Shown here one piece after another: positions 10,440 to 64,000 of a stretch of DNA of 64,000 nt; within the stretch, counting starts at the first letter, position 1, and every line of letters starts with the position of its first letter. The stretch is from Octopus vulgaris. Taxonomy: Eukaryota. The stretch covers positions 4,526,001-4,590,000 of the forward strand of contig OX597843.1 in NCBI GenBank assembly GCA_951406725.2, written 5' to 3'. The notes below the pieces were generated by a model. The model saw only the letters and a list, made by a program, of their open reading frames with translations. It searched no databases and had not been told where the DNA came from. The position numbers were made by a program, and so were the translations under genes.

Positions 10440-10690
10440 AGCCTCAAGCATTTTTGGATTGCTTCCCTCAGTACAAAATCGATTTTTTTATTCTTGACAG
10501 TTTTTCTATCACAGCTTTTTTCCTCAACAGTTCTCGTAGCAGTGCAAACAGCTGCAAACCTATTTTCAGGCAATGTTTATATACCTTGTAGCTCACTCCA
10601 TTGTTCCCTGGTGAACTTTTTGCTCTTGCTTTTCTTATGAACTCATCCATTTCTTTCCGTTTGATGTCACTCAAATCAAATGGTACTCTT
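10440..10690 (-). mobile_element. Reverse-transcriptase N-terminal fragment of an R2/HERO-like non-LTR element
   Basis: FIRKARAKSSPGNNGVSYKVYKHC resembles the RT region-0 motif SSPGxNGVxY. Confidence 0.6.
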
Positions 10691-31125: not shown

Positions 31126-33556
31126 ATACTCACCCAAAACCTATATACTCTTTTACTTGTTTCAGTCATTTGACTGCAGCACCACCTTTAGTCAAGCAAA
31201 TCGACCCCAGGACTTATTCTTTGTAAGCCTGGTACTTATTCTATCGGTCTCTTTTGCCAAGCCACTAAGTAACGGGGACATAAACACACCTGCATCGGGG
31301 GACAAACGCATATATACAACGGGCTTCTTTCAGTCTACCAAATCCACTCACTAGGCTATAGTAGAAAACACTTGCTCACGGTGCCACGCAGTGGGACTGA
31401 ACCCGGGACCATGTGGTTGGTAAGCAAGCTACTTACCACACAGCCACTCCTGCGCCTATATATACATTTAACAAGAGCTGGCAAGCCTGAGAACTGCCCC
31501 AAGTTCCACTGTTGTTTCATGGCTATCATCCTTTCGGGGGTGATAAATTAAGTACCAGTGAAACACTGGGGGGGTCGATGTAATCGACTTATCCCCTTCC
31601 CCAAAATAGCTGCCTTTGTGGCACAATCGTTAGCATGCCAGGTAAAATGGTTAGCAGTATTTTGAGTTCAAATTCCGCCAAGGTCAGCTTTGCCTTTCAG
31701 GGTCGAAATAAGCACTGGGGTCAATGTATTTGACTATACTCCTTCCCCCAAAATTTTCAGGGCCTTGTGCTTTGAGTAGAAATTATTATGGCAGAATCGT
31801 TAGCACACCTGGTGAAATGCTTTGTGGTATTTCATCTGCCTTTATGTTCCGAGTTCACCTTTCATAAATTAAGTTCCAGTTGAGTATTGTGGTCGAAGTG
31901 GTTGGCTGTCTCACTCCCCACAAAATCCAGGCCTTGTACCTAGAGTAGAAAAGATTATAATTATTGTTTCAATGTAAGCCCTTGTGGCCAATAAATGAAT
32001 TATAATCATCATTGTTTAACGTCCGCTTTCCATGCTGGCATGGGTTGGAAGATTTGACTGAGGTCTGGCGAACCAGGCTCCAATCTGATCTGGCAGACTT
32101 TCTACAGCCCTTCCCAATGCCAACCACTCTGAGAGTGTAGCGGGTGCTCCTATGTGCCACCGGCATGAGGGCCAGTCAGGTGGTACTGGCAATGATCACG
32201 CTTGAATGGTGCTTTTTACTTGCCACCAGCACGGAAGCCAGTTTGTTGCTCTGGCAACGATCACACTTGGATGGTGGTCTTAGCACAGATGCCAGTCATT
32301 GAATTTGATTTCAAATTCTGCAGAGGTCGACTTTGCCTTTCATGGGTCAATTAAATAAGTACCAGTTATACACTGGAGTCGATGTAATCAACTTAATTTC
32401 TTTGTCTGTCCCCTGTGGGTAATAAAGAAATAAATTATTCTCATCATCAAGGCAGCAAACCGACAGAACTGTTGGCAATTTGGATAAGTTTGAGTTTCCT
32501 TTCCTTGTTCAACATAACCGACTTTCTCTCAAAACCTGTTGGCCTTGTTCCAAACTTTGAAACGATTATCGGTTTCAAATTATGGTACAAGGCCAAAGTT
32601 GATTACAACATCCCCCAGTATTTCACTGTCACTTAATTTGTCGATTCCAAAAGGATGAACGGCAAAGACGACCTCAGTAGAATTTGAACAAATGATGCTA
32701 AGCATTTTGTCTGACATAGTAACAACTCTGTCAGCTCACCCACCTTATTTAAAACCATTATTATTCAGTAGTCTTACTTCTTTAGCGTGCTTTCACTTTA
32801 CTACCGAGCGCAGCTCTGTGATGCTCTTCTGGTTACTGTATTGAAAGTGTTTTGCATAGGATGTGGGCAGTGCTAGTTTCTGTCTGAAGTTCTTTCTTAT
32901 CATACCTAATGTTCCTACTATAATGGGAATTGTTTCTGTTTTTAGGCTCTACATTCGAGTTACCTCATCATTCAGTAGTCTAATCTTCATCACATGCTTT
33001 CACTACACTACTGACCGCAGCTCTGTGTGCCTTGGTGCTATAAATTTTACTGTATTGACCTTCTCTCTATACATATATCTTTTTGTCTCTCCCTTTCCTT
33101 CTCTCTACATATGTTTTATACGCACCTGCGCCCTCTTTTACTTGTTTCAGTCAGTTAACTGCAGCACCACCTTCAATCGAGCAACTCGACCCTGGGACTT
33201 ATTCTTTGTAAGCCCAGTACTTATTTTATCGGTCTCTTTTACCGAACCGCTAAGTAACGGGGACAAATACAGACACACATATACGACGGGCTTCTTTCAG
33301 TTTCCGTCTACCAAATCCACTCACAACGCATTGGTCGGCCCGGGGCTATAGCAGAAGACACTTGCTCAAGGTGCCACGCAGTGGGACTGAACCATATGGT
33401 TGGTAACAAAGCTACTTACCACTCCTGCGCCTATATAAAAAGTTACATGGTCAGTATGGGGCTCGAACCCACGACGTTCTAACCGGCCTTCGTTACAATA
33501 ATTTCATCATCGTTATTTTTTTATATCGATAAAATTGTTTTTTTCCTTAATTACAG

Positions 33557-34759
33557 ACAAGCACAACGAGAAAGAATGACAAGCCATCCCAGTGCGACAC
33601 CATTGCATCTTCCAAAACCATTGACCACACTAGCAGAGACAAAAGCTACGTTGATAAAAACTCTTCAAATTGCATCGGCTGGGCTTATTCCACTAACAAC
33701 AATAATAATCATGCTTTTCCATCTCTGTATGGTACTGCATCAATCATTGCCGTCCCTAATCTCAACCAATTCCACCAGGTCGAGGACCAAGCTCTGGATC
33801 TTACACAGAACCACAGAAACTTTATGCCTGGCAACGGATCTACCAAAGAATCTCTTCTCTCTGCTGACAAATTCCTTAGTAAGAAACAATTTCCTGTTAT
33901 TCCAAAAGTTGAACAGACAGAATTGTCAAACGAAGGTCGCTCAGAGAAAGCGAACAAAATTCTTTCTTTTGTGAAAGACGCTGTAAAACTTTCTGATGAC
34001 AATATGGAAGCTTTTGTGATTGTTTCAACAGCGCCGGACCAGTTTTCATTCTGGGGTTCTTCGCAATTCGTTAATAAATTCAAATCTTCCGAGCCTTTAG
34101 TTCCATACCACCCAGTAAAGTGCCGCGACTCTCTGGAAGCCGACCAAAGTTTGTTGACTTCGACGAGAACAACAGCAGCAATACCTACAACAAAAATGAT
34201 GAGAGAAACTGTATCAAATAAAATGAACCAATCGCATTTGATAAGAAGCGAACATGAAAGAAAACAGGGGCAGCAATTCTCAGGTAAAAAGCAGAACTGT
34301 TTAAAGATCCCTTCGCCATATTCTTTCAAGCATTCGGCACTCTTCCTGACAAATTTACTGCACAAACGGAACGCAACAACTGCAGGTGCTGTCGTACAAG
34401 TCCCAGGTTTTAATGCAACAAAGAATCCAAACAAACACAAGACGAAAGCCTTCAAAAGGAAGCCGTCCACCCAAGACACGGACATCAATGACAGCCGAGA
34501 AAAGGTTACGTCTAAATGCAACGGGGAAGAGCTTCATGACCGTCGGGATGTTGACAGCGAGGAGGGTGATGAAGAGGCGCCGAAGGAGAACGTTGTCATC
34601 ACTCTCATGCAGAAAGAGCGAAGCCAGGCACTTCTGCGGATTTTGAAGTCGAGGAGGAACAAGGCAGGGAAGAATTTCAAATTTGGAGCAAATGTGCAAA
34701 ACGGGTTGACTAGAGATGTAAATCCTGGTAAAATTAAAAATATATCTCTTGTTGAGTAA
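33557..34759 (+). CDS. Orphan gene X, coding exon 3 (terminal); joined CDS 1776 bp, 591 aa
   Basis: TTACAG acceptor, then an open phase-0 frame of 1203 bp that includes ORF 33,824-34,759. AATAAA signals near 35.0 and 35.2 kb. Confidence 0.82.
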   Translation, partial: TSTTRKNDKPSQCDTIASSKTIDHTSRDKSYVDKNSSNCIGWAYSTNNNNNHAFPSLYGTASIIAVPNLNQFHQVEDQALDLTQNHRNFMPGNGSTKESLLSADKFLSKKQFPVIPKVEQTELSNEGRSEKANKILSFVKDAVKLSDDNMEAFVIVSTAPDQFSFWGSSQFVNKFKSSEPLVPYHPVKCRDSLEADQSLLTSTRTTAAIPTTKMMRETVSNKMNQSHLIRSEHERKQGQQFSGKKQNCLKIPSPYSFKHSALFLTNLLHKRNATTAGAVVQVPGFNATKNPNKHKTKAFKRKPSTQDTDINDSREKVTSKCNGEELHDRRDVDSEEGDEEAPKENVVITLMQKERSQALLRILKSRRNKAGKNFKFGANVQNGLTRDVNPGKIKNISLVE

Positions 34760-37409: not shown

Positions 37410-38540
37410 AAATATATATGGCGCGGATGAACCAGAGCCCCGCAAATGTCCATCAGGTAAAGAAAATGATTGCACTAGGAGCTAGTATAAGAGTTACCCT
37501 AAAAGGCCACACGTTTAAGAATAAAATATATGACCAGGGGGCAGCCATCAGCGTTAGTATCGCTGGTGATGTGGCCAACCTTTTCACGGTATGGTGGGAC
37601 AGAAGGCTTAAGGAACGCCTAACACCATACTCGTGAACATGTACTCTTGCTATGTTGATGATATCAACATAGTGGTAAAGGCACCCCCACAAGAGAGTAC
37701 TGTTGATATAACAATAGAAACTAATACTATGGAGAGCATTCCAGCAAATAGCTAACTCCATCCACCAGAGTATTAAGGTAACAATAGACTACCAGTACTA
37801 GACACTGAACTCTCGCTAGAAATTGTGAATAATAAAACCCAGATCCTTTATTCATACTATGGCCTCAAAATACTTGATCCACCGGAACTCAGCCAAATTC
37901 AATATTTTTATGGCAGACCTCATCAGAATAATGAGAAATGTGTCACGCATATGCAAGCCTACAGAATTAAAGAGACACATACATTATTTCATTCATCGCA
38001 TGCAGTTCTCAGGTTACAGCCATAAAGAAAGGGTCAGAGTATACAAAGGAGCCATAAAGAAATTTGATAATATATTATGTAATGATAGGAATGGGATTTG
38101 CCCACTCTATAGAAAGGACAAGAAAGAAAATAGGGGAGGCCACCTCTTGGTATGATCGCCATAAATACCAGAGTGTCATGTTCGTTGACACCACCCCTGG
38201 AGGTGAACTGGCATACCACTTTAGAAGGACCCTAGACAAGCTAAGGATTAAGGTTGTTGAAAAGCCAGGCAATAAGACAACGACATACGTAGGGAAAACG
38301 GCAACAAGCATAGGAGAGCGGGTAAATGGACATTGGAGACAACTCAAGGAAGGTAAAGGCTCATCGATTCTGTACCAACACGGGGGATCAGTCAACAACA
38401 TAGAAGTTAAAATATTCTCCACACATAGAACAGATGCAACAATCAGACAAATTACAGAAGCTACACACATAATAGAAGATGAACCTAGCCTGAATAGGAA
38501 ACTGCAATGGAACACTAGCACCCACCACAACATATGACGA
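37410..38540 (+). mobile_element. Decayed Penelope-like element (RT plus GIY-YIG endonuclease)
   Basis: Motifs SIAGDVANLF, YVDDI, ASKYLIHRNSA, RMQFSGYS and YVGKTATSIGERVNGH...EATHIIEDEPSLN. Duplicated at about 49,000-49,835 (+) and 45,670-45,885 (-). Confidence 0.85.
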
Positions 38541-40229
38541 TAGAGGATCCCCACAAACTGGTTACAATATAAACAAAACCGAAAACATAATAGATAAAAT
38601 AGACAGAAAATTAAACAGATATATAATTTTTTTTTGATTTATTATTATTACTAGTATTGTTGTTATACATACGGATGTAAACACATGAACGAGAGATATA
38701 AGCATGCGCAAATGAAGACATACAAAATGGCTGACGGTTAGTAAGGAGAGACACAAATAAGAAAACAAAGGACCACTGATGCGGTCACAGGAGTGTGACG
38801 AAAGAACTCTGGCCGAAATAAGATTAATGTAAAAAATAACACTGAAGCAAAGTATACACACAGAAATATATAGTGCGTGTGTTTTTATTGGCTAAACTGG
38901 CAAAATGACCATTCCGAAATATAGCAATATATATACCCTGTGGCACAAGTTGACCAAAATTGAGAGTATGATGGAAGAAGCCTTGCTCCTCCTTCCATAG
39001 CAGACAAAAATTGATATCAGACCATGTTAACATCAAAAAGGTGCTTTTTTTTTTCTATAAAAATCCCTATTTTTTTACTGCTGTGTCTCCATTTTTTGGT
39101 ATATTTTAACCAGAAAACTGTTCATTTAAAGAGAATAATAAGCTACATAATGCAAATTTTTTACTTTTCAAAAATTCCAATTCTAAAGGGTCAAAACAAA
39201 CCCGAGCAATACTACTAGTATATACAGAAAATAGAAACTACATGTGGAAATGCACAGTAACGATAGATATATACAATTAGATGACGTTTGAATTTTAAAG
39301 AAAAAAACCTGTCTCTAGAAGGGCTGTTCACAAAAAGTGTGTCAGTAATTATCTAGACTTACAATATTGCCCATTTCACCGTTTTCCCGAAAAACGTATC
39401 TTCTCAAATTTCTTTAAGAAAATTACTCTCCCCAGACACAATAATATGCTTCAACACACGAATTCATATAAACTTTATATTATAAAGAATCTTGCAAGCC
39501 AAATCCCAAAACGGAAGATATAAGTGTAGTCTGGAAATATGGGGATTACATGAGGTTGTATGACATAGCCTTGATACTAAATCAAAAGGCAAACTTGAAT
39601 TTCCTTGGTAACCGTTTTTGTCTTTCTTCATAAAATGCACACTTTTCAATGACTGAATCACAAGACACACACACAACATTTTAAGTATCCTTTCTAGTTT
39701 ACACCGTTTCTCTGCTATTTCAGAATATTCCAGATGGCTTGGCATTAAAGGACATTTTTACTCTGGATCCATCGACCATTTACCAAGTCTAAAGGAAAAT
39801 TGTACACAGAACAAATTTTACCCTGTTTGTATTAATCTTTGGTAATTTGCAATGGAATATTTCATTTAATTGGCATTACGTAGTAAAACTTCTCTACTTC
39901 ACTGTCTTGAATGCACTGAAGATGATATCGCGTTCTCATGAAAGTTGGATAATGATGGACATTGCAGCATCTTCGGATATTGACGAAGATCACAGTTGAT
40001 GATAATAACACAGAATCACTGTTAGGAATCATCATCATCGTTTAACGTCCGCTTTCCATGCTAGCTTGGGTTGGACGATTCAACCGAGGGCTGGCGAACC
40101 TGATGGCTGCACCAGGCTCCAATATTGATCTGGCAGAGTTTCTACAGCTGGATGCCCTTCCTAACGCCAACCACTCCGAGAAATAGAAAAGGGAAAAATT
40201 GAAAAGCATCTTTATATTTCGGTGAGAGA

Positions 40230-40816
<587 letters not shown>

Positions 40817-41601
40817 CTCTGCCCTGTTCATCACTCATTTCCCTCCACTCACCTGCCAATTGACTCTCACACTCCTGCAAACCTATTTCTTTACTACCCA
40901 CAAGGGGCTAAACACAGAGGGGACAGACAAACGGATTAAGTCGATTACAGTGTGTAACTGGTACTTATTTAATCCACCCCGAAAGGTTGTAAGGCAAAAT
41001 CAACCTCGGCGGAATTTGAACCCAGAACGTAGCACCAGACGAAATACCGCTAAGCATTTCGCCCAGCGTGCTAACGTTCCTGACAGCTCGCCACCTTAAT
41101 TCTTTCTCAATATTCAAAGGGCTGGGGTCAATAAAATAAGTACCAGTTGACCACCGGGGTCAAAAAAAAAAATTAGGCGTAGGAGTGGCTGTGCCTACCA
41201 ACCACATGGTTCCGGATTTGGTAGATGGAAACTCAAAGAAGCCCGTCGTATATGTATATCTGTATTTTTGTCCCACCCCCAAAGTTCGTTTCTCGTTGTG
41301 TTCAACGTTTTTTTGATGTCTTGTACCCATATATGCCTGTATATGTACATATTTACGTAGGTATGTATGTATATATTTATATGTGTGGTTTTTAGGGGAG
41401 TCTGGATGCAAAGGCATTCTGCTTTGAATAGAAGCGAAAGCAAAACTGGGTTGAAGAAAAATAACCCATTTTGAGACAAAAAGTTAAAGAATGTTGTGAG
41501 AATAATGGTAGAATGTCTAAAAGCGACGAAGGACAACCTTGAATTTTTCTTCTTTTTTTTTTTTTAAACTTAAATATCTCTTAATTTCACAATTTTTCAG
41601 T

Positions 41602-41766
41602 GGCGGCAAGCTGGCCCGGTCGTTTAGCGCGTCGGACGGAATTGCTTAGTTGTATTTCGTCCGCCGTGACGTCCTGGGGAGGTTCGCTTCCCCGGGACGT
41701 CTTTGCGGTCGGAGTACTTCTGAGCATTTTCGTTTGGCGCGCTAATTGGCAAGCTCGTCGCCTTTT
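41602..41766 (+). ncRNA. Putative Pol III-transcribed long-hairpin ncRNA, copy 1
   Basis: End-to-end rod fold with 10 G-U pairs and a UUCG loop. A-box-like TGGCCCGGTCG, B-box-like GGTTCGCTTCC, TAAATA at -31, and TTTT right after the closing base pair. Confidence 0.7.
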
Positions 41767-41838
41767 CGATCCCCTTTTGCATTTGACCTAGTTTAATCTG
41801 ACCCAGTTTATCGACTCCCAAATCGATAATGACTAAGA

Positions 41839-42103
41839 GGAAGTGACGTCAGGGACAGTGCCGGAAACTGAAACAAACATTTATTGGAAGGAAGTCTGTT
41901 GCTCGCAGAACTTCGTGTTTGGTACACCTCTCATGGAACTTTACCTTTTAATTATGTTTTTAAGTAGAAGTCTGTCTTGTATTGGTGGCAGAGACGGAGC
42001 CAGAGAGTTTAACAAATAGTGAAGAAAGGAAAATATATATATATTTGGTTGTCAATGGGCAACCTGTGGCCTGACGAGGACTCCCAACGAAAAGTTATGA
42101 GGT
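41839..42103 (+). promoter_or_regulatory. ETS-CRE promoter with putative non-coding first exon (duplicate arm)
   Basis: GGAAGTGACGTCA (41,839-51), CCGGAAA, and donor AG|GTAAGG at 42,102. Confidence 0.5.
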
Positions 42104-42149
42104 AAGGCCATTACGTTTTATTGCGCATACATACACATTAATACTATTA

Positions 42150-42470
42150 TTGTATACAGTGCTCAGGTGCCCCACAACTTGTCAAAAGTGCGTATAAAGT
42201 ATATGTAGAAATGTCTGGGAAGTGAACAGTGTATGAGTCAGATAGATGCTTGCTTGTGTGTATTGAGGGGAGGAGAAGATCAGGTGTAGTGTTGGCGAAT
42301 CTCAGAAAGCATGGAAGTTTTGAAGGATGCAGTGCTCCGACAATTAACAACTGATGCCGGCAGTTTGTTCCATGCTTCAGCAACTTTTAGCATGAAAAAA
42401 TGTTTGCGAAGGTCATGGAAAGAGCTGTGCTACTTCCTGACTTTGTAAAACATGTCCACGGGTGTTGGAC
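42150..42470 (-). mobile_element. CR1-type LINE 3' end; mirror copy at about 55,780-56,095
   Basis: RKHFF.LKVAEAWNKLPASVV-like terminal motif. Confidence 0.65.
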
Positions 42471-42496
42471 ATATATATATATATGTGTGTGTATAT

Positions 42497-42737
42497 CAGT
42501 GCTTTTCAAACTTTTTGCTGGAGCGGAACCCCAAGGAAACATTCCACTGGCTCGAGGAACCCCAAGGAAACATTCCACTGGCTCGAGGAACCCCAAGGAA
42601 ACATTCCACTGGCCCGAGGAACCCCTGTGCAATAATTTAATAGACTTATGCACACATATCTGCACGGGAGAATTAAAAATTACTGCCGATTTTAGCAGTT
42701 TTGTAACTTCTTGCGGAACCCTGGTTGAAAACCACTG
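42497..42737. mobile_element. hAT-like MITE with an internal 29-bp tandem repeat
   Basis: CAGTGCTTTTCAA...TTGAAAACCACTG termini. Related copies at about 46,965-47,117 and 55,575-55,754. Confidence 0.65.
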
Positions 42738-43725
42738 ATATATATATATACACACAAACATATACACTAATAAGGTTTATTTATATGAATATGTGGAGGT
42801 GTATGTATAAATAGCTTTAGATATAAATATCTAATTATACCAGTTTATCATTTTGGTGTTACTCCATTTTCTTCTTAGCAATAATCTCTATTCATTCATT
42901 CTAAACACTAATTGAAGCACCCATAAGGAACCCACACGTGTTTTTGGATATTTATAACTACCTGTACGTGTATATCTTGGTGGATTAAAATTTATCTAAA
43001 CATTAACACGACATGTCTGTCCCATAAGAGCCAGAATAACTCCCCATTGTAACTTTTAATAAACTCATGGTTTTTAGGTTAAAATTTCACAACTTAAATC
43101 TCTCTCTATATAAAACTGAAGTTGTCTGTGTGTGGCAGCCTTCAACTAACACTATCTTCTCTGAGGCCCTGTGGCGCAGGTTGACCAAAATTGAGAGTAT
43201 GATAGAAGAAGGCTTGCTCTACCTTCCGTAGAAGAAAAAATTCAAATCGGACCATGTTAGCACCAAAAACTATTTACATCAAAAAGGTGCTTTTTTTTTC
43301 CTTTGAAAATCCCTATTTTTTGCCTGCTGTGTCGTCATTTTTCGGTGTACATTAACCAGAAAAATGTTCACTTAAAGAGTGGTAGAATTTGTCAAAATAA
43401 AACATCTTTTTCTCTTGGCTTTATTGAGAAAATTCTATAATTGACAGCAACGATATAGCCGTTAAGTGGTCACTGGACGTGCTAGAAATAGCAGCCGAAT
43501 ATAAGGAACCTCCAAATTTTGAGGGCTTAAAATTTGGGAAAAAGAGATTATTTTAAAATAATTTCTTTGTAACTAAACACTTTTAAACTTCGTATACTGG
43601 TAGATTGTGTTTATAAAACATCTTTTTCTCTTGGCTTTATTGAGAAAATTCTATAGTTTGTAAGATATTTGTTGGTTTTTCTTCTTCTTCAATTTCTATA
43701 CAAGCATATATATACAAACTGAAAG

Positions 43726-44068
43726 GGCAATGTTTCGTTTGTAGTAGCACACGTTTCCGTAGATTTCCGTAAAAAATGTAAACACTGAATTGGCCATACA
43801 TATACACCGAGTAAAAAAATTCCAGTTATCTCTCTCTTTCACACATTACTCTCTCTTCTAACAGAAGCACTTCACTTACACAACATACTGCCTCCCACAC
43901 CCCCATCAAACACACACACGGGGACTTCAAAAAGAAATTCCATCGTCATACAATCGCTTCCTCTTAGTCTCTTTCGCTCTCATTACTTCAAATATTCCCG
44001 CAAAGCCACATGTAAAAAAAATATAAGTATTTTACGGAAACGTGTGCTACTACAAACGAAACGTTGCC
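43726..44068. mobile_element. TIR MITE present only in the left arm of the inverted duplication
   Basis: 36-bp TIR GGCAATGTTTCGTTTGTAGTAGCACACGTTTCCGTA. Its interior is related to 62,265-62,701. Confidence 0.75.
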
Positions 44069-45885
44069 AAATGAAGATATACATACATGCACATCAACAC
44101 ACAATATTGTCATAGCAACCGTTTACACAGATATCTGACATCATTGGCTGAAATGGAAAAGCGGTAGTGACGTCAGGTGACCGAGCCTGAAAAACCATTC
44201 TTTGCTTCGGGGTTCGATCCCAGTCTCCCGTACCCACCGAGGGACCTGAATTTTTTTTCTGTTTGTTTCAATAAGGAACAAGTAGTTCTTTCTCTTCTTA
44301 TCTGTCGATGTCCTGACACAGCCAAGGAGGCATTTTCCTAGGTGAGGCCATAACATTAATATTCAAGAACCTGTCCCGGTTTCTTTCCTTTTTCCCATTT
44401 TATAAAGATCCTACATTCCAAAGCATGAAATTCGCATTTTATAATTCATCTTTTGGCGAACCTTCGGTATAGGTACCGGAAGTGGCTTTGTTTACATTTC
44501 TGAAGATAACAGAAACCCTTTTCTCCCACCCCCAACTCCTTATATACTCTTTTACTTGTTTCAGTCATTTGACTGCGGCCATGCTGGAGCACCGCCTTTA
44601 ATCGAGCAACTCGACCCCGGGACTTATTCTTTTGTAAGCCCAGTACTTATTCTATCGGTCGCTTTTTTTCCAAAACCGCTAAGTAACGGGACATAAACAC
44701 ACCAGCATCGGTTGTCAAGCAATGCTAGGGGGAAACACAGACACATATATACGACAGGCTTCTTTCAGTTTCCGTCTACCAAATCCACTCACAAGGCATT
44801 GGTCGGCCCGGGGCTATAGCAGAAGACACTTGCCCAAGGTGCCATGCAGTGGGACTGAACCATGTTCATTGGACGGAGGGGGTTGTTTTGCTCGTATATA
44901 TATATATGTCATAATTTAGAAGAAACAGTAAGAAGTTGTCATGGTATTCAGAGTCTCAAATGTCAAAGCTATGTAGGGGTCATTCAAAGCAACGATTAGT
45001 AAATCTACAAAACCAGTATGCCTTTGAATCTCTTTAACAATAACGACTTTCATTCCCACCTCAGTTCATCTGATTGTATACATCTATCGTTCTGTGCAGT
45101 TTCCTCTTATTTCCCCTTGCATTTCCACATGTAGTTTCTATATAAACTAGCAGTATCGATCGGGTTTGTTTTGACCCTTTAGAATTGGAATTTTTGAAAA
45201 GTAAAAATTTTGCATTATGTAGCTTGTTATTCTCTTTAAGTGAACATTTTTCTGGTTGAAATACACCGAAAAATGGCGACACAGCAGTCAAAAAATAGTG
45301 ATTTTTATAGGAAAAAAAAAAGCACCTTTTTGATGTTAACAAGGTCCAATTTGAGTTTTTGTCTTCTATGGGAGGAAGAGCAAGGCTTCTTCCATCATAC
45401 TCTGAATTTTGGACGACTTGTGCCACAGGGTATATATTGCTATATTTCGGAATGGTCATTTTGCCAATAAAAGCACACGCACCATATATTTGGTGTTACA
45501 TTGCAGTGTTATTTTTTATATTAATCTTATTTCGGCCAGAGTTCTTTCGTCACACTCTTGTGACCACATCAGTGGTCCTTTGTTTTCTTGTGTGTCTCTC
45601 GTTCATGTGTTTACATCCGTATGTATAACATCCGTATGTATAACAACAATAAATTATATATTTGTTTATATTGTAACCAGTCTGTGGGGATCCTCTACCA
45701 TCATATGTTGTGGTGGGTGCTAGTGTTCCATTGCAGTTTGCTATTCAGGCCAGGTTCATCTTCTATTATGTGTGTAGAATATTTTAATTTCTATGTTGTT
45801 GACTGATCCCCCGTGTTGGTACAGAATCGATGAGCCTTTACCTTCCTTGAGTTGTCTCCAATGTCCATTTATCCACTCTTCTATG

Positions 45886-51188: not shown

Positions 51189-52460
51189 TTATTCTCCTGT
51201 ATGATTGGATATGTGTGTAGCCAATTGTGCTTTCTGAGAGAATGATTTACCACAGATATCACACTGATAGGGCTTCTCCCCTGTATGAATACGTTTGTGC
51301 CTAGATAAGGTACCTCCATCGGAGAAAGATTTTCCACAGGCATCGCAATCATATGGTTTCTCTCCTGTGTGAATACGCTTGTGTCTGGTCAAGGTGCCTC
51401 CGTCGGAGAACGATTTGCCGCAGATGTCACAGTGATATGGTTTCTCACCTGTATGAATACGTTTGTGTGTCGTTAAGTTGCCACTTACGGAGAACAATTT
51501 TCCGCAGATGTCACACTGATATTGTTTCTCTCCTGAGTGAGTGTGTTTGTGTTTAACCAAGGAATTGCTCCGAGAGAAGGATTTAGCACAAATGTTACAT
51601 TGATACGGCTTTTCTCCCGTATGGAGGTGTCTGTGAGCCGTTAAGGAATCATTCCTTGAGAATGACTCCCCACAGATATTACAATGGTATGGCTTCTCAC
51701 CTGTATGAATGCGAACATGCTTAGTCAAGCGTGAAGTTTCAGTGAACGATTTGCCACAGATATCACACTGATACGGTTTCTCTCCAGTGTGACTGTATCT
51801 ATGAGTGATTAAAGAATCATTTCGGGAGAAAGATTTACCACAGGTATCACAACGATGCGGTTTTTCACCTGTATGAGTTTGCATATGCTTAGTCAAGGGA
51901 TCAGCTTCGGAGAATGATTTCCCACAGGTATCACAACGATATGGCTTCTCACCTGTATGAATGCGTTTGTGTCTATTTAAGTGACTGTTATCAGAAAATG
52001 ATTTACTACAGATGTCACAGTGATACGGCTTCTCACCTGTATGGGTGCGTTTGTGTTTAGTCAAGGGACCAGTTTCTGAGAAGGATTTCCCACAGATATC
52101 GCAATAATGTGGTTTCTCCCCTGTATGAATGAGTTTGTGTACAGTTAGGGAGTTATTTCGAGTGAATGATTTTCCACATATATCACAGTGAAATGGTTTT
52201 TCTCCTGTATGTGTGTGTCTGTGTGTCACAAGTGCACCTTTTTGAGAGAATGATTTACCACAGATATCACAACGATATGGCTTCTCTCCTGTGTGAATAC
52301 ATCTGTGAGTGGCAAGGGTATCTTTCTGAGAATATGACTTTTTACAAATATCACATTGGTAAGATGCATCACATATGTCAATTGGCATTTCATCACTAAA
52401 ACCAGTCCTTTTAAATTCCAATCCACATTCAACATTATCATCACACGATTCACATTCCAT
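51189..52460 (-). CDS. C2H2 zinc-finger protein, 14 tandem fingers, 423 aa
   Basis: Intact ORF with CxxC-x12-HxxxH fingers and TGEKPY linkers. Upstream acceptor TTTCAG at 52,788. Confidence 0.95.
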
Positions 52461-53850
52461 AATTTTCCTTTGTAATCCAAGTGTAATCAGAATAAAATAT
52501 CCAACATATTCCAGACAGCAAAGAAGAGAAATGATTTACATTGGACAGATACGTGTCCTCATATTGTTTGTCGACACATATCCATCTACAGAATTCCTTC
52601 TCCCTAAAATATATAGAACAGAACTGGAGAAATTTTGCAAATAGTCTCAGCCAGACGAAATATTCCACAGGAATTCTACCAAAAACTTATATAAACAAGG
52701 TGAAGTCTGTTTTGTGTAAGAATTTTCCTTTAAGCTTGGTAAATGGTTAGGGTAAAAATATCCTTTAACACCATACCATCGGGAATTCTGAAATTACAGA
52801 GAAACAGTGTAAACTAGAGGGGATACTTAAAACAGAAGGAGGGAGGTGTCAGTCTATTCAACTAGCTCCCACCCCCCGAAATTGCTGGCCTTGTGCCAAA
52901 ATTTGAAAGCAATATTACTTAGTACAACTTTAAACGAAGTCTTCATATTTACAGACTACACCAACCCCTTCGTATTTTGCTAAGGAGGAGCAAGGGTGGT
53001 CTCTTAAATTACGTATAGCTCCTACTTGATTCAGCCCGTCGTATATACATGTGTGTGTGTGTCTTACTATCGCTTGTCAACCGGTGTTGGTGTGTTTACG
53101 TCCCTGAGGCTTAGCAGTTCAGCAAAGAGAGCGATAGAATAAATACTAGGCTTTAAAAAAAGGTCAATTTATTCAACTTAAAACTTCACCAAGATGGTGC
53201 CCCAGCATGGCCGCAATCTAATAACCGAAAGAAATAAAATATGAACGTAACTTCGGTATAGGTACCGGATACATTTCAAGAAAGTTTTTATTTTAATAGG
53301 CGCAGGGGTGGCTGTGTGGTAAGTAGCTTGTTTACCAACCACATGGTTCCGGGTTCAGTCCCACTGCGTGGCATCTTGGGCAAGTGTCTTCTGCTATAGC
53401 CTCGGGCCAACTAGAGCCTTATGAGTGGATTTGGTAGACGGAAACTGAAAGAAGCCTGTCGTATATATGTTTGTCCCCCTAGCAATGCTTGACAACCGAT
53501 GCTGGTGTGTTTACGTCCCCGTCACTTAGCGGTTCGGCAAAAGAGACCGATAGAATAAGTACTGGGCTTACAAAAGAATAAGTCCCGGGGTCGATTTGCT
53601 CGACTAAAGGCGGTGCTCCAGCATGGCCGCAGTCAAAATGACTGAAACAAGTAAAAGAGTATATAAGGGGGTGGGAGAAAAGGGTTTCTGTTATCTTCAG
53701 AAATGTAAACAAAGCCACTTTCCGGTACCTATACCGAAGGATCGCCAAAAGAGGAATTATAAAATGCGAATTTCATGCTTTGGAATGTAGGATCTTTATA
53801 AAATGGGAAAGAAACCGGGACAGGTTCTTGAATATTAATGTTATGGCCTC

Positions 53851-54105
53851 ACCTAGAAAAATGCCTCCTTGGCTGTGTCAGGACAACCAGTTCCTTATTC
53901 AAACAGACAGAAAAAAATCAGGTCCCTCGGTGGGTACGGGAGACTGGGATCGAACCCCGAATGTTTCCTACCGCCGAAGAAAAGAATAGTTCTTCAGGCG
54001 CAGGCTCGGTCACTGGTCGCCTGACGTCACTACCGCTTTTCCATTTCAGCCAATGATATCAAAGAATCAACGTCAGATATCTGTGTAAACGGTTGCTATG
54101 ACAAT
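53851..54105 (-). promoter_or_regulatory. Promoter and putative non-coding exon 1 of the 14-finger gene
   Basis: RFX-like GTTGCTATGACAAT (54,092-105), CCAAT (54,050), TGACGTCA (54,022-29), and donor AG|GTGAGG at 53,852. Confidence 0.55.
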
Positions 54106-54871
54106 ATTGTGTGTGTATGCATTTCTTGATTTTGTTTTCAGTTTGTATATTACATATATGTGTGCTTGTATGTATATTTGTGTAAGTAAGTATAATGTAT
54201 AGAAATTGAATTCACCTCAATAGACGTCATTGATTGGTTGAAATTGCAGAAAAAAAACCAACAAATATCTTACAAACCATAGAATTTTCTCAATAAAGCC
54301 AAGAGAAAAAGATGTTTTATAAACACATTCTACCAGTATATGAAGTTTAAAAGTGTTTAGTTAACTAGAAATTATTTTTAAAAACTGCCTGTCAAACCGA
54401 AAAGAACTTAGTATTATAATCTCTTACAGAACCTTTTCCCCAAAATTTGGGGGTTCCTTATATACGTTAAAATAGGGTAATTCGAGATATTCGGCTGCTA
54501 TTTCTAGCACGTCCAGTGACCACTTAGCGGCTATATCGTTGCCTTGTTGCTGTCAATTATAGAATTTTCTCAATAAAGCCAAGAGAAAAAGATGTTTTAT
54601 AAACACATTCTACCAGTATAGGAAGTTTGAAAGTGGACATTATTTTAAAAACTGCTGTTCAAACCGAAAAGATCCTATGTATGTGTTTATATCTATTTTT
54701 GTGTATACACATTCATATACATACATACACAAAAAAATACATTAATAAGCAATTAAACCGGAAAAAATTTGAAATAAGATTTTACTGAAGGAATATGCTA
54801 GATATGTTTCGATACATGTATCGCTTGGGAAAGGAAATCAATTATATGTTGTACTGTAATTATATCAGGGC

Positions 54872-55221
54872 ACTAGCAATATTGCTCGGGTTTGTTTTCT
54901 TTTCTACCCTTTAGAATAGGAATTTTCGTAAAGTAAAAATTTGGCATTATGTAGCTTGTTCTCTGGTTGAAATACACTGAAAAATGGAGTTACAGCAGTC
55001 AAAAAATAGGGATTTTCAAAGGAAAAAAAGCACCTGTTTGATATAAATAGTTTTTGGTGTTAACATGGTCTGGTTTGAATTTTATCTTCTACGGAAGGAA
55101 GAGCAAGCCTTCTTCTATCATACTCTCAATTTTGGTCAACTTGCCCCACAGGGTCTCGGAGGAGATAGTGTTAGTTGAAGGCTGCCATACACAGACAACT
55201 TCAGCTTTATATAGAGAGAGA
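54872..55221 (-). mobile_element. Probable non-autonomous Helitron-like repeat
   Basis: 5' TC(TC)n-TATATAAA start and 3' CTAG end. Related pieces at about 38,940-39,219, 43,100-43,380 and 45,148-45,430. Confidence 0.45.
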
Positions 55222-56156
55222 TTTAAGTTGTAAAATTTTAACCTAAAAACCATGAGTTTATTAAAAGTTACAATGGGGAGTTATTCTGGCTCTTATGGGA
55301 CAGACATGTCGTGTTAATGTTTAGATAAATTTTAATCCACCAAGATATACACGTACAGGTAGTTATAAATATCCAGACACACGTGTAGGTTCCTTATGGT
55401 TGCTTCAATTAGTGTTTAGAATGAATGAATAGAGATTATTGCTAAGAAGAAAACGGAGTAACACCCCAATGATAAACTGGTATAATTAGATATTTATATC
55501 TAAAGCTATTTATACATACACCTTCACATATTTATATAAATAAACCTTATTAGTGTATATATATATATACACACCAGTGGTTTTCAGCCAGGGTTCCGCA
55601 AGAAGTTACAAAACTGCTAAAATCGGCAGTAATTTTTAAGTCTCCTGTGCAGATATGTGTGCATAAGTCTATTAAATTAATTGCACAGGGGTTCCTCGAG
55701 CCAGTGGAATGTTTCCTTGGGGTTCCGCTCCAGCAAAAAGTTTTAAAAGCACTGATATACACACACATATATATGTCCAACACCCGTGGACATGTTTTAC
55801 AAAGTGAGGAAGTAGCACAGCTCTTTCCATGACCTTCGCAAACATTTTTTTCATGCTAAAAGTTGCTGAAGCATGGAACAAACTGCCGGCATCAGTTGTC
55901 GGAGCACTGCATCCTACAAAATTTCCTGAGATTCGCCAACACTACACCTGATCTTCTCCTCCCCTCCATACACACAAGCAAGCATCTATCTGACTCATAC
56001 ACTGTTCACTTCCCAGACATTTCTACACCACTGCATATATTTTATACGCACTTTTGACAAGCTATGGGGCACCTGAGCACTGTATACAACAATTTCATTA
56101 ATATAATTATTATATATGTGTGTGTGTATGTATGCGCAATAAAACGTAATGGCCTT

Positions 56157-56431
56157 ACCTCGTAACTTTTCGTTGGGAGTCCTCGTCAGAAAACTTCAGC
56201 AGGCCACAGGTTGCCCATTGACAACCAAATATATATATTTTCCTTTCTTCACTATTTGTTAAATTCGCAGGCTCCGTCTCTGACATCAATACAAGACAGA
56301 CTTCTACTTAAAAACATAATTAAAGGTAAAGTTCCATGAGAGGTGTACCAAACACGAAGTTCTGCGAGCAACAGACTTCCTTCCAATAAATGTTTGTTTC
56401 AGTTTTCGGCACTGACCCTGACGTCACTTCC
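56157..56431 (-). promoter_or_regulatory. ETS-CRE promoter with putative non-coding first exon, pointing toward the 14-finger gene
   Basis: TGACGTCACTTCC at 56,419-31, and a minus-strand donor GTAAGG at 56,158. Confidence 0.5.
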
Positions 56432-56503
56432 TCTTAGTCATTATCGATTTGGGGGTGGATAAACGGGGTCAGATGAAACTAGGTCAAATGCAAAAGGGGA
56501 TCG

Positions 56504-56668
56504 AAAAGGCGACGAGCTTGCCAATTAGCGCGCCAAACGAAAATGCTCAGAAGTACTCCGACCGCAAAGACGTCCCGGGGAAGCGAACCTCCCCAGGACG
56601 TCACGGCGGACGAAATACAACTAAGCAATTCCGTCCGACGCGCTAAACGACCGGGCCAGCTTGCCGCC
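56504..56668 (-). ncRNA. Putative Pol III long-hairpin ncRNA, copy 2
   Basis: Exact reverse complement of 41,602-41,766 by eye. Confidence 0.7.
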
Positions 56669-58105
56669 ACTGAAAAATTGTGAAATTAAGAGATATTTAA
56701 GTTTAAAAAAAAAAAAAAAAGAAGAAAAATTCAAGGTTGTCCTTCGTCGCTTTTAGACATTCTACCATTATTCTCACAACATTCTTTAACTTTTTGTCTC
56801 AAAATGGGTTATTTTTCTTCAACCCAGTTTTGCTTTCGCTTCTATTCAAAGCAGAATACTTTTGCATCCAGACTCCCCTAAAAACCACACATATATAATA
56901 TACATACCCACGTAAATATGTACATATACATGCATATATGGGTACTAGACATCAACAAAACGTTGAATACAATGAGAAACGAACTTTTTTTTGGGGGGGG
57001 GGACAAAAAATACAGATATACGACGGGCTTCTTTGAGTTTCCGTCTACCAAATCCATTCGCAAGATTTTGGTGCCATGCAATGGGACTGAACCCAGAATC
57101 ATGTGGTTGGGAGGCAAGCTTCTTTGCCATACAGTCACGCCTGCACCACACACACAACAGCCATGCCTGCGTCACACATGCAGCAGGCTTCTTTCAGTTT
57201 CCGTCTACCAAATCCACTCACAAGGCATTGGTCGGCCTGAGGCTATAGCAGAAGACACTTGCCCAAGGTGCCACGCAGTGGGACTGAACCCGGAACCATG
57301 TGGTTGGTAAGCAAGCTACTTACCACACAGCCACTCCTGTTTAATATATATTCTTTATTGCCCACAAGAGGCTAAACAAAAAGAGGACAATGATTTATTT
57401 ACTTTCTTTAAAAAATTCTTTTATTTTATTCTGTAAAATCAACTCATTTGCATACGCGCAAGTCGTTGTAGGATCGACTACTTACGCGCACCAGGTCCAG
57501 TCTTCGCTAGTAGTACCCGATTGGCCTCCTACTCTGAAATTTCAGGCATTGTACCTAGAGCAGAAAAGGGATAAGTCAATTACATTGACCCCAGTGGTCA
57601 ACTGGTACTTATTTTCTTGACCCCAGCGCCCTTTAAATATTGAGAAAGAATTAAGGCGGCGAGCTGGCGGACACGTTAGCACAACGGGCGAAATGCTTAG
57701 CAGTATTTCGTCTGCAGCTACGTTCTGGGTTCAAATTCCTCCGAGGTCGACTTTGCCTTTCATCCTTTCGGGGTCGATAAATTAAGTACCAGTTACGCAC
57801 TGGGGTGGATGTGATTGACTTAATCCCTCAGTCTGTCCTTGTTTGTCCCCTCTGTATTTAGCCCCTTGTGGGTAGTAAAGAAATGTGAATTTCGTTTGCC
57901 GCTACGTTCCGAGTTAAAATTCCTCCGAGGTCGACTTTGCCTTTCAACCTTTCGGGGTCGATAAATTAAGTACCAGTTGTGCACTGGGGTCGATGTAATC
58001 GACTTACTCCGTTTGTTTGTCCCCTCAGTGTTTAGCCCCTTGTGGGTAGTAAAGAAATAGGTTTGCAGGAGTGTGAGAGTCAATTGAGTGATGAACAGGG
58101 CAGAG

Positions 58106-58881
58106 TCACTCGGGTTGAGTATGAGTGAAGTTATGTTTAGTCAAGTGTGCTCTTTGAGAGAACGATTTGCCACAGGTATGACAAACATAGGGTTTTTTCT
58201 CCTGTGTGAATACGTTGGTGAGTAGTTAACTGATCGTGGAGAGAGAAAGATTTGTCGCAGGTGTCACAGTGGTATGGCTTCTCACCTGTATGAATACGTA
58301 TGTGAATTGTCAAGCTACCTGTTTGAGTGAACGACTTGCCACAGATGTCACAACGATATGGTTTCTCTCCAGCATGAATATGTTTGTGCTTCGTCAGAGC
58401 GCTTCCATTCGAGAATGATTTACCACAGGTGTTGCACAGGTAGGGTTTCTCGTCGCTGTGAATTCGGTTGTGAGTCGTCAGGTTGCCACTCCGCGAAAAC
58501 GATTTTCCACAGATGTCACAGTCGTACGGTTTCTCTCCTGTATGAATGCGCCTGTGAGCCGTTAAGTTACCACTTAGAGTGAACGACTTACCACAGATGT
58601 CACAGTGATAGGGCTTCTCTCCTGTATGAATACGTTTGTGTTTCGTCAAGTGATTATTTTGAAAGAACGAAGTACCACAAATACCACAGCGATATGGTTT
58701 CTCTCCTGTATGAGTACGTTTGTGAATAGAGAGGCTATCTTTGCGAGAAAATGACTTTTTGCAAACATCACAAGGATATGCTGTTTTCCTTGTATCTTTC
58801 GACATCTCGTCAACAAAATTAATCCTTTTAAGGCTCTGATTTACATTTAATATTGTCCTCACACAATTCACTTTCCATCAT
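58106..58881 (-). CDS. C2H2 zinc-finger gene, 8 fingers, with two single-base insertions (pseudogene or sequencing error)
   Basis: Family-type start [12 protein letters not shown]. An extra T (CCTTAAAAGG, about 58,830) and an extra A (GAAAAAACCC, about 58,195) relative to the paralog. The 776-bp span equals 258 codons plus 2 bases. Confidence 0.8.
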
Positions 58882-61242
58882 TTTCCGTCTCTCACCGAAA
58901 TATAAAGATGCTTTTCAATTTCTCCTTTTTCTATTTCTCGGAGTGGTTGGCGTTAGGAAGGGCATCCGGCTGTAGAAACTCTGTCAGATCAGATTGGATC
59001 CTGGTGCAGCCATCTGGTTTGTCAGACCTCAGTCAAATCATCCAACCCATGCTAGCGTGGAAAGCGGACCTTAAACGATGATGATATATATATGTTGCCA
59101 CTACCACCAGACTGGCCCTTTTACTGGTGGCACCTTAAAATCACCCACTACACTCTCGGAGTGGTTGGCGTTAGGAAGGGCATCCAACTGTAGAAACTCT
59201 TCCAGATCAAGATTGGAGCCTGGTGCAGTCAAATCGTCCAACCCATGCTAGTATGAAAAGTGGACGTTAAACGACGATGATGATTCCTAAGTGATTCTGT
59301 GCTATTATCATCAACTGTGATCTTCGTCAATATCCGAAGATGCTGCAAGCTCCGTCATTATCCAAGTTTCATGAGAATACGATATCATCTTCAGTGCATT
59401 CAAGACAGTGAAGTAGAGAAGTTTTACTAAACAATGCCAATTAAATGAAATATTCCATTGCAATTTACCAAAGATTAATACAAACAGGGTAAAATTTGTT
59501 CCGTGTACAATTTTCCTTTAGACTTGGTAAATGGTCGATGAATCCAGAGTAAAAATGTCCTTTAATGCCAAGCCATCTGGAATAGCAGAGAAACAGTATA
59601 TACTAGAGAGGATACTTAAAATGTTGTGTGTTTTGTTTCAGTCATTGAAAAGTGTGCATTTTATGAAGAAAGACAAAAACGGTTACCAAGGAAATTCAAG
59701 TTTGCCTTTCGATTTGGTATTAAGGTTATGTCATACAACCTCGTGTAATTTCCAGACTACACCTATATATTTCGTTTTTGGGATTTGGCTTGCAAGATTC
59801 TTTATATGAATTTGTGTGTTGAAGCAAATTTTATTGTGTCTGGGGAGAGTCATTTTCTTAAAGAAATTTGAGAAGATACGTTTTCGGGATGACCGGGAAA
59901 ACGGTGTGGCCCCGGTTCGCGCACTCATGACTAGTTGATACTCTCTCTTTACTTGTTTCAGTCATTTGACTGCGGCCATGCTAGAGCACCGCCTTTAATC
60001 GAGCAACTCGACCCCGGGACTTATTCTTTGTAAGCCCAGTACTTATTATATCGGTCTCTTTTGCCGAACCGCTAGGTTACGGGGACATAAACACACCAGC
60101 ATCGGTTGTCAAGCAATGCTAGGGGGACACACACAAACATATACGCGCACACACATATATATATATACGACGGGCTTCTTTCAGTTTCCGTCTACCAAAT
60201 CCACTCACAAAGCTTTGGTCGGCCCGAGGCTACAGTAGAAGACACTTGCCCAAGGTGCCACGCAGTGGGACTGAACCCGGAACCATGTGGTTGGTAAGCA
60301 AGCTACTTACCACACAGCCACTCCTGTGCCTGGTAACATTACATTGATGAACAAAGAAAAGATGGTTCAATGATACAAAGGGAAAAAAAAACAGCAGGTA
60401 ATAATAATAAAACGAAGCATACCTTTCTATAAATGCTTGTACGAAAACCTGTCACAGGTTTTATAAGGAAAATGAATGACTTTCCATGTTAATAGTAAAA
60501 CGGCAAAAAACAAGGCGGGAATTGAACTGGATTGTCATTGATCAACTGATGAAACCTGGTAACATAGCAACGGTGGGAGGGGCATGGTCAAATATCTCTG
60601 GGTGTCAAAGGTCAGGCGAGCTGGCAGAAACGTTAGCACGGCGGGCGAAATGCTTAGCGGTATTTCGTCTGGCGCTACGTTCTGAGTTCAAATTCCGCCG
60701 AGGTCGACTTTGCCTTTCATCCTTTCGGGGTCGATAAATTAAGTACCAGTTATGCACTGGGGTCGATGTAATCGACTTAATCCGTCTGTTTGTCCCCTCT
60801 GTGTTTGGACCCTTGTGGCTAGTAAAGAAATAGGTATTTTGTCTGTTTTTACGTTCTGGGTTCAAATTCCACCGAGGTCGACTTTGCCTTTCATCCTTTC
60901 GGGGGTCGATAAATTAAGTACTTGTTATGCACTGGGGTCAATGTAATCGACTTAATCCCTTTGTCTGTCCTTTCTGTGTTTAACCCCTTTTGGGTAGTAA
61001 AGAAATAGGTATTTCGTCTGCCGTTACGTTGTGAGTTCAAATTCCGCCAAGGTCGACTTTGCCTTTCATTCTTTCGGGGTCGATAAATTAAGTACCAGTT
61101 ACGCACTGGAGTCGATGTAATCGAATCACGCCCTCTCCCACAAATTGTTGGCTTTCTACTAAAATTTCAAACCATTCTATATTAAAACACGGTTTCAGTT
61201 TGTGGAAGTTGTTTCCCTTTACGGATCTATTTCCTAAATTCT

Positions 61243-63411: not shown

Positions 63412-64000
<589 letters not shown>

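What the first reader, a model, noticed from the sequence alone, without database searches (positions are those of the whole stretch)
41602..41766. Candidate novel Pol III gene for a 161-nt rod-shaped hairpin RNA
Seen: 41,602 pairs with 41,762. The stretch 41,624-41,745 pairs in unbroken register (about 59 positions, no bulges), topped by a 15-bp stem and a G(UUCG)C tetraloop. By hand count the non-Watson-Crick positions are 10 G-U, several U-U, one G-A and one A-C. A neutrally decaying DNA palindrome should give G-U and A-C about equally, so 10:1 points to selection on a + strand RNA. Also seen: an A-box-like motif at +11, a B-box-like GGTTCGCTTCC that forms the apical loop, TAAATA at -31, and TTTT right after the last paired base. 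Known: this layout resembles vault RNA, adenovirus VA RNA and BC1-type Pol III genes, but I do not recognise the sequence as any known family. Inference: a lineage-specific dsRNA-like ncRNA, such as a Dicer substrate or a decoy for ADAR or dsRNA sensors. Caveats: there is an internal T4 at 41,727-30 and the B box has one mismatch.
Basis: partly seen in the sequence, partly recalled or inferred. Interest (0 to 1): 0.9.

Follow-up and report, generated by a model that had tools for sequence, protein, structure and literature searches.

The report
Octopus SINE-derived double-stranded RNA genes
Two opposed copies of a common jumping element fused into a long hairpin that now sits in 12 copies on one chromosome and has changed fast while keeping its base pairing, so it is likely a new small-RNA gene family, predicted to be read by RNA polymerase III and to act as a double-stranded decoy for RNA-binding proteins.

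Summary
The hairpin is real (-111.4 kcal/mol, z -13.8; opposite strand -73.7) and matches no Rfam family. It is not a lone gene: 12 copies lie on contig C30 in two subfamilies about 78% alike. Both arms are heads of an abundant tRNA-type SINE, one inverted; seven longer ancestral-type copies on six contigs show the fusion. After loss of the centre, the C30 copies took 18-24 substitutions in a 54-pair core yet kept 47-49 pairs (random placement keeps 36-40), lost most A-C mismatches and show 7 Watson-Crick double changes. Four copies are identical in the hairpin while 35 of 226 upstream sites vary. This points to selection on the + strand RNA. Best reading: a snaR/BC200-kind exapted SINE RNA family, likely Pol III, working as a duplex ligand for dsRNA-binding proteins; SINE silencing is unlikely. 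New variant of a known kind.

The parts
41602..41766 (+). Rod-shaped hairpin RNA gene candidate, subfamily A (161 nt plus T4)
   Evidence: 12 copies on C30
41602..41678 (+). 5' arm: head of a dispersed tRNA-type SINE, sense
   Evidence: alignment with dispersed copies
41691..41762 (-). 3' arm: second SINE head, inverted; its own promoter boxes are decayed
   Evidence: minus-strand box scores at most 5.7 (A) and 4.9 (B) bits in C30 copies
41612..41622 (+). A-box-like element inherited from the SINE; invariant A replaced by G
   Evidence: 6.7 bits against 12.4-16.1 for tRNA genes and 3.9-5.5 for 8 SINE copies scored
41681..41691 (+). B-box-like element at the apex; GGTTCG kept in all 12 copies, the A58-equivalent is C or T
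   Evidence: (12.1 bits subfamily A, 14.4 subfamily B; tRNA 13.5-17.7; SINE 8.5-13.0)
41571..41576 (+). TATA-like element at about -31 in all 12 copies
   Evidence: a tandem U6 array of this genome has TATA at about -30
41763..41766 (+). T4 after the last pair (predicted terminator; the A-rich insertion site of the inverted SINE)
   Evidence: 11 of 11 complete C30 copies and 6 of 7 long forms; AA precedes 32 of 42 dispersed SINE heads, AAAA 2 of 42
41775..41778 (+). Second T4, 10-20 nt after the first, in the 11 complete C30 copies; in the long forms the next T4 lies about 37 nt on
41727..41730 (+). Internal T4, only in subfamily A (8 of 12 copies); possible early stop
41370..41601 (+). Upstream flank shared by C30 copies and long forms (shows DNA-level duplication); T13 tract at 41553-41565
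41826..42110 (+). Promoter-like module (AP-1-, ETS- and CRE-like motifs, names recalled) with a splice-donor-like site at 42102; found only beside hairpin copies
   Evidence: (9 of 9 matches on C30 next to copies)
56504..56668 (-). Second, identical copy inside an inverted duplication (about 39.4-44.9 kb against 53.3-59.9 kb)

Best explanation
The element is a 12-copy family of hairpins built from two opposed SINE heads, likely transcribed by RNA polymerase III into a 155-165-nt RNA that would act by its shape, as an imperfect duplex bound by a dsRNA-binding protein (ADAR, an ILF3/Staufen-type protein or a RIG-I/PKR-type sensor) and so damping it. Shown: origin from an inverted SINE pair joined at a palindrome inside the SINE, loss of the centre, spread by DNA duplication on C30, fast divergence with pairing kept, near-identity among paralogues. 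Inferred: RNA-level selection on the + strand (about 0.85). Inferred, untested: Pol III transcription from a hybrid promoter (TATA at -31, weak A box, apical B box, T4 stop, active Pol II-type module nearby; about 0.65). Predicted only: the decoy role.
For: Arms align to dispersed SINE heads; 7 long forms keep both heads and the centre. In the 54-pair core the 5 C30 copies simulated keep 47-49 pairs after 19-24 substitutions; random placement gives 36-40 (at most 8 of 10,000 draws reach it); A-C count 0-1 against 5-7 expected; the 2 long forms simulated match chance. 7 Watson-Crick double changes, three with a G-U intermediate seen in other copies; most lie 1-3 nt from G-U or mismatched pairs that stayed uncorrected. 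Arms are 16-29% from long forms while the upstream flank is 4-14% (p 0.018 to 4e-7 for 4 C30 copies, 0.46 and 1 for 2 long forms). L001-L004: 0 of 161 hairpin sites vary, 35 of 226 upstream (p 2e-9). Strand energy gap 23-40 kcal/mol in C30 copies, 5-21 in long forms. + strand B box kept, - strand boxes decayed, second T4 gained. Sequence diverges between subfamilies while shape stays, and complementarity to the parent SINE has eroded, which suits a shape-reading partner. One RIG-I C-terminal domain is encoded in the genome. Precedents: snaR (PMC3045588) and nc886 (PMC10498592), passages read.
Against: No discrete transcript shown. Putative RNA contigs of three runs (RNA only by the tool's guess) extend past the T4 by 46-307 nt, and two begin at least 23 nt upstream of +1, so they are not this product. 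Both boxes lack an invariant A; subfamily A has an internal T4. Single-sided G-U:A-C events are 12:3 in C30 (p 0.035) but 12:7 in long forms, and the two do not differ (Fisher p 0.45). The long-form control has little power (5-6 substitutions). The register of subfamily B was set by hand with one gap and leans to pairing. Pairs with double changes within C30 alone are 6, reached by 27 of 500 shuffles. With all four B copies the hairpin is no more conserved than the flank (13 of 154 against 13 of 122). Identity among paralogues can come from gene conversion. No binding partner is indicated by any datum.
Confidence: 0.4

Rival explanations
1. The hairpin is under RNA selection but inside a longer Pol II transcript, for example at the 5' end of the first exon that ends at the donor-like site 42102.
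For: Putative RNA contigs cover hairpin and downstream module in one piece (41579-42073, 41614-41946); module and donor-like site are conserved and occur only beside copies; TATA at -31 could serve Pol II; a 14-finger zinc-finger frame lies 4 kb downstream of copy 2.
Against: The module lies about 900 nt further off behind L010 and was not found within reach of L006, L009, L012; unpaired GGTTCG and two T4 runs are kept; contigs carry no strand and could be divergent antisense RNA primed at the A13 tract.
Confidence: 0.18
2. A Pol III precursor cut by Dicer-1 into a non-canonical microRNA, as reported for snaR-A.
For: Terminal stem with 3' U overhang and long stem; snaR-A precedent (PMC8127991, search listing only); Dicer-1 is kept in molluscs (PMC11114477, passages).
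Against: The first 22 nt differ at many positions between subfamilies A and B, so no shared seed; a 7-nt internal loop lies at +16 to +22; no Rfam microRNA reaches its gathering score.
Confidence: 0.17
3. No RNA function: a DNA palindrome kept paired by arm-to-arm repair or template switching and homogenised by gene conversion, perhaps useful only as a TFIIIC site or cruciform next to a promoter.
For: Palindromes mutate and self-correct (recalled); four clustered changes in L010-L012 create a perfect 5-bp helix, as templated copying would; L006 joins an A-type hairpin to a B-type downstream flank, so conversion occurs; G-U:A-C contrast with long forms is not significant.
Against: DNA repair should remove G-T and A-C alike, yet A-C fell to 0-1 in complete copies while 7-11 G-U stayed in the core; ancestral G-U pairs persisted beside corrected pairs; long forms with a longer palindrome show no double changes (0 in 6 copies, few substitutions).
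Confidence: 0.15
4. A hairpin source of endogenous siRNAs that silence the parent SINE family.
For: The 3' arm is antisense to the SINE head; with G-U allowed, 8 of 56 21-nt windows of L001 still pair with at least a quarter of 91 SINE heads at 2 or fewer non-pairs.
Against: 0 of 54 and 0 of 55 such windows in subfamily B against 46-47 of 74 in long forms; no window within 2 exact mismatches of any head; molluscs are reported to lack Dicer-2 and siRNA Argonautes (PMC11114477, abstract and passages).
Confidence: 0.05

Closest known systems
Primate snaR genes (small NF90-associated RNAs)
   Same: SINE-derived through internal deletions, structured, multi-copy, clustered on one chromosome by DNA duplication, internal A/B boxes, lineage-restricted, fast evolving (PMC3045588, passages; PMC10498592, passages).
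   Different: snaR comes from one Alu monomer, is about 117 nt and ends in oligo-A then oligo-U; this comes from two opposed tRNA-type SINE heads, gives an about 65-pair rod and has no oligo-A; no homology; partner unknown.
BC200 / BC1
   Same: Pol III RNA gene exapted from a SINE-type element with internal plus external promoter parts (BC200: PMC10498592 passages; BC1 recalled).
   Different: Single-copy genes with A-rich and unique 3' domains; here 12 copies, wholly duplex.
nc886 and adenovirus VA RNA
   Same: Pol III-type imperfect duplex with terminal stem and 3' U tail that damps a dsRNA sensor (nc886: PMC10498592 passages; VA RNA recalled): the proposed way of working.
   Different: No sequence relation; no branched central domain; binding untested.
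Inverted SINE pairs (IRAlu) in Pol II transcripts
   Same: Duplex formed by two opposed SINE copies.
   Different: Those are usually passive and decay; here the pair was trimmed, amplified and kept paired through many changes.
Parent tRNA-type octopus SINE (OK/OR group of Ohshima and Okada 1994, seen as a reference title only)
   Same: Both arms are its 5' 75 nt.
   Different: No SINE body or tail on either arm; which named family it is was not established.

Membership tests
Exapted SINE-derived Pol III RNA gene (snaR/BC200 kind) | Descent from a SINE | tested here: met
Exapted SINE-derived Pol III RNA gene (snaR/BC200 kind) | A box, B box and oligo-T stop on the transcribed strand | tested here: inconclusive
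   B box 12.1-14.4 bits, A box 2.0-6.7 bits, both lacking an invariant A; T4 twice; internal T4 in subfamily A. The tRNA set may include pseudogenes.
Exapted SINE-derived Pol III RNA gene (snaR/BC200 kind) | Constraint beyond neutral SINE decay | tested here: met
Exapted SINE-derived Pol III RNA gene (snaR/BC200 kind) | Discrete Pol III transcript, Pol III occupancy | not testable with these tools
   only unstranded contigs were available
snaR | Alu (7SL) ancestry and 3' oligo-A tract | tested here: not met
   tRNA-type SINE heads, no A tract
snaR | NF90/ILF3 binding | not testable with these tools
   needs a pulldown
Vault RNA (RF00006) | Match to the covariance model, about 90-100 nt panhandle | tested here: not met
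   no match in the window; the model matches 16 other places, none on C30
MITE | Hundreds of dispersed copies with unrelated flanks and target-site duplications | tested here: not met
   12 copies on one contig sharing 130-450 nt of upstream flank
Canonical microRNA precursor | Match to a known family; conserved seed; defined mature and star reads | tested here: inconclusive
   Rfam best 15.9 bits against a gathering score of 61; ends differ between subfamilies; reads and MirGeneDB not available
Hairpin endo-siRNA locus (Drosophila hpRNA kind) | Maintained complementarity to a target | tested here: not met
   tested for the parent SINE only; other targets not tested
nc886 / VA RNA-like sensor decoy | Binding and inhibition of a dsRNA sensor | not testable with these tools
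   a RIG-I-type domain exists in the genome; binding untested

The most novel reading that the evidence does not exclude
A host-encoded VA-RNA-like decoy born de novo in octopus from two opposed SINE heads and driven by selection into a stable duplex that titrates ADAR or an innate dsRNA sensor, giving cephalopods a dosage dial (12 gene copies) on RNA editing or self-dsRNA tolerance, with every step of its birth still readable in the genome.
Probability: 0.15. Interest if true: 0.92.

Novelty: new variant of a known kind. Interest (0 to 1): 0.68.

Why it matters
If expressed, this is a lineage-specific Pol III RNA family in an invertebrate, of a kind so far described mainly in mammals, with a new route of birth (an inverted SINE pair turned into one duplex gene). 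Ancestral forms, intermediates and two derived subfamilies coexist in one genome, so the gain of RNA structure constraint can be read pair by pair. An abundant duplex RNA matters in an animal group known for heavy A-to-I editing and reported to lack the siRNA pathway. One northern blot and one ChIP-PCR would test it.

Tried and rejected
Rfam: 0 matches at gathering score in the window, 5 weak chance matches by E-value near the element; one tRNA in 110 kb around the copies. Sequencing runs: no RNA holder listed on record; 20 of 24 rows hold the stretch, under two organism labels. In one search three runs guessed to be RNA have no cover at 41388-41570 where the DNA run has; a repeat skip at 41539-41577 blurs the left end, so this is not used as evidence. 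No A-to-G differences were listed inside the hairpin, but contigs drop rare variants. Read evidence for subfamily B and for copy 2 was not obtained, so that question stays open. An ADAR imprint through retroposition was rejected: G-U-forming changes are both A-to-G and C-to-T, and copies share flanks. A U6-type upstream promoter was not found: the octamer-like element at -78 of some U6 genes lies downstream (+231 to +295) in 4 of 12 copies and not at -78 in any. Whether the apical motif descends from the SINE B box or from the palindrome centre could not be decided. Literature: six searches (listings and abstract starts) showed no description of this family; supplements of PMC9699675 were searched only in part (24,410 characters, the PDF not searched), so an annotated octopus microRNA here is not excluded. 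Earlier scan notes: nothing.

Full report
Observation. The fold is as described: -111.4 kcal/mol, z -13.8, 0 of 200 shuffles as stable, one register from 41624 to 41745, a 15-bp apical stem with a UUCG loop, 10 G-U pairs. The opposite strand gives -73.7. No Rfam family reaches its gathering score in the window and the E-value search gives 5 chance-level matches. The motifs are at the stated places. The genome has 2.8 Gb in 227 contigs; that it is an octopus is my inference.

Copy number. A DNA search gave 12 near-full matches, all on C30 between 0.3 and 7.0 Mb: eight at 92-100% (subfamily A, one 3'-truncated) and four at 78% (subfamily B); the other 28 of 40 scored matches cover only the 5' 75 nt. 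A search from subfamily B and a tight apex pattern (12 matches, control 0) gave the same 12. One copy is in this window at 56504-56668, inside an inverted duplication of 85-93% BLAST identity. Copies share their upstream flank, so they spread by DNA duplication, not as a MITE or by retroposition.

Origin. The 5' arm aligns with the head of an abundant dispersed SINE with A and B boxes. Seven further loci on C21 (two), C23, C26, C27, C28 and C30, most with the same upstream flank, hold a longer form: SINE head, the short palindrome that lies inside the SINE just after its B box, then a second head in reverse. The C30 family lost about 27 nt of the centre and 4 nt of the 3' arm. The T4 after the last pair is the A-rich site in front of the inverted SINE (AA before 32 of 42 dispersed heads, AAAA before 2 of 42). 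The promoter-like layout is therefore mostly inherited, and 4 of the 10 G-U pairs of the fold were already present: the long-form majority has 8 G-U and 3 A-C in 75 positions (p 0.23).

Selection on the duplex. Against the long-form majority, the eight distinct C30 copies carry 18-24 substitutions in the 54-pair core. The five simulated keep 47-49 pairs; the same number of random substitutions keeps 36-40, and at most 8 of 10,000 draws reach the observed value; A-C mismatches are 0-1 against 5-7 expected. Two long forms simulated (5-6 substitutions, little power) match chance. Seven Watson-Crick pairs changed on both sides and stayed Watson-Crick, two more became G-U; three went G-C or U-A through a G-U state that other copies still show. 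Most such changes sit 1-3 nt from uncorrected G-U or mismatched pairs, and ancestral G-U pairs persisted, which long-tract arm-to-arm conversion would not leave. The arms moved 16-29% from the long forms while the upstream flank moved 4-14%; long forms show no such excess. Among L001-L004 none of 161 hairpin sites varies against 35 of 226 upstream (p 2e-9); L010-L012 3 of 154 against 12 of 126 (p 0.007); with L009 included the contrast vanishes. Limits: single-sided G-U:A-C events are 12:3 (p 0.035) but the long forms give 12:7 and the two do not differ (p 0.45); positions 7-8, 16-21 and the apex were left out of that count; the subfamily B register was set by hand with one gap; on the model-fitted alignment 95% of cells pair and 2 of 500 shuffles reach the covariation score, but 27 of 500 reach the 6 doubly changed pairs; subfamily A was chosen because it folds well, and A and B share a stem branch.

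Which polymerase. With matrices from this genome's tRNA genes (29 genes, 5 distinct A and 13 distinct B boxes, some perhaps pseudogenes), the + strand B box scores 12.1 (A) and 14.4 (B) bits, at or above the SINE (8.5-13.0) and near tRNAs (13.5-17.7); the A box is weak (2.0-6.7), like the SINE's; the minus-strand boxes decayed. GGTTCG is invariant although its TTCG is unpaired and forms a tetraloop only in subfamily A. A TATA-like element stays at about -31, as in a U6 array of this genome; all 11 complete copies keep T4 and gained a second T4 close behind; T4 is the first T run behind 9 of 30 tRNA matches. Against: both boxes lack an invariant A and subfamily A has an internal T4. Downstream, the ancestral third SINE was replaced in most copies by motif-rich modules: an ETS/CRE-like module with a donor-like site, found only beside copies (9 of 9 matches), or an octamer-like element identical to the one at -78 of the U6 array (4 copies). 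In human cells active Pol III genes lie in Pol II promoter or enhancer chromatin bound by ETS1, JUN and FOS (PMC3896398, passages), so this is compatible, not proof.

Expression. No holder is on record as RNA. Contigs of three runs guessed to be RNA cover 41578-41812, 41579-42073 and 41614-41946; two carry the downstream alleles of copy 2. They pass the T4, so they reflect a longer or antisense transcript near the module, not the predicted product. Such libraries are poorly suited to a short, unpolyadenylated, very stable RNA (general knowledge), so this neither shows nor excludes it.

Function. Sequence changed between subfamilies while a rod of 4-20-bp helices with G-U pairs and small symmetric loops stayed, which fits a partner that reads shape. 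Antisense capacity to the parent SINE eroded (0 of 54-55 windows in B, 7-8 of 56-57 in A, 46-47 of 74 in long forms), and molluscs are reported to lack Dicer-2 and siRNA Argonautes while having an interferon-like system (PMC11114477, abstract and passages). I therefore favour a ligand or decoy for a dsRNA-binding protein, as nc886 is for PKR and snaR binds NF90 (PMC10498592, PMC3045588, passages); a RIG-I-type domain is present in the genome. This last step is prediction only.

Comparison and verdict. It works like, and arose like, snaR or BC200 but is homologous to neither; it is not vault RNA (the vault model matches 16 other places, none on C30), not a MITE and not a recognised microRNA. 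Six literature searches showed no description, with the supplement gap noted under Tried and rejected. Verdict: real feature; RNA-level selection about 0.85; Pol III gene family about 0.65; decoy mechanism 0.4 overall; new variant of a known kind; interest 0.68.

Noticed in passing
G000 C8:17,845,131-17,845,639 and 17,900,033-17,900,539, C8:49,747,988, C4:15,615,042 and others (L159-L166): The Rfam vault model gives 16 matches over its gathering score; the 10 printed are about 90-nt panhandles with a shared 5' box, most followed by T runs, and the five on C8 have TATA near -30. Candidate octopus vault RNA family; one paper search listed nothing on mollusc vault RNA.
   Followed up: partly
window 40203-40697 (+), 51189-52535 (-), 58137-58877 (-), 63673-63987 (+): C2H2 zinc-finger arrays (4, 14, 7 and 4 fingers by pattern); the 14-finger frame may be the coding exon of the transcript that starts at the module behind copy 2.
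   Followed up: partly
window about 39,400-44,900 against 53,300-59,900: Inverted segmental duplication of 85-93% identity carrying zinc-finger frame, hairpin and promoter-like module.
   Followed up: partly
L100-L103 (G000 C1:139.42 Mb): Tandem U6 array with an octamer-like element at -78 and TATA at about -30; similar elements at -76 in L093 and L095. Could be the proximal promoter element of this lineage.
   Followed up: no
L148, L150-L154: Several tRNA-Lys-like matches carry T in place of the invariant T-loop A, possibly retrocopies with misreading at the modified base (interpretation recalled).
   Followed up: no
L090 5530-6159 (-): MYND-finger exon, nervy/ETO-like by recall, 7-10 kb from two subfamily B copies.
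   Followed up: no
window 33551-34759 (+): 402-aa open frame without a Pfam match.
   Followed up: no
window 37829-38537 (+): Two frames that look like broken reverse-transcriptase tail and GIY-YIG pieces of a Penelope-type element (recalled likeness; no Pfam match).
   Followed up: no
window 1-12,000: Complex tandem array with nested periods of about 721, 1544 and 2265 nt built from an 86-92-nt unit.
   Followed up: no
L082 7150-7224: A tRNA-Met gene 1.6 kb upstream of copy L006, on the opposite strand.
   Followed up: no
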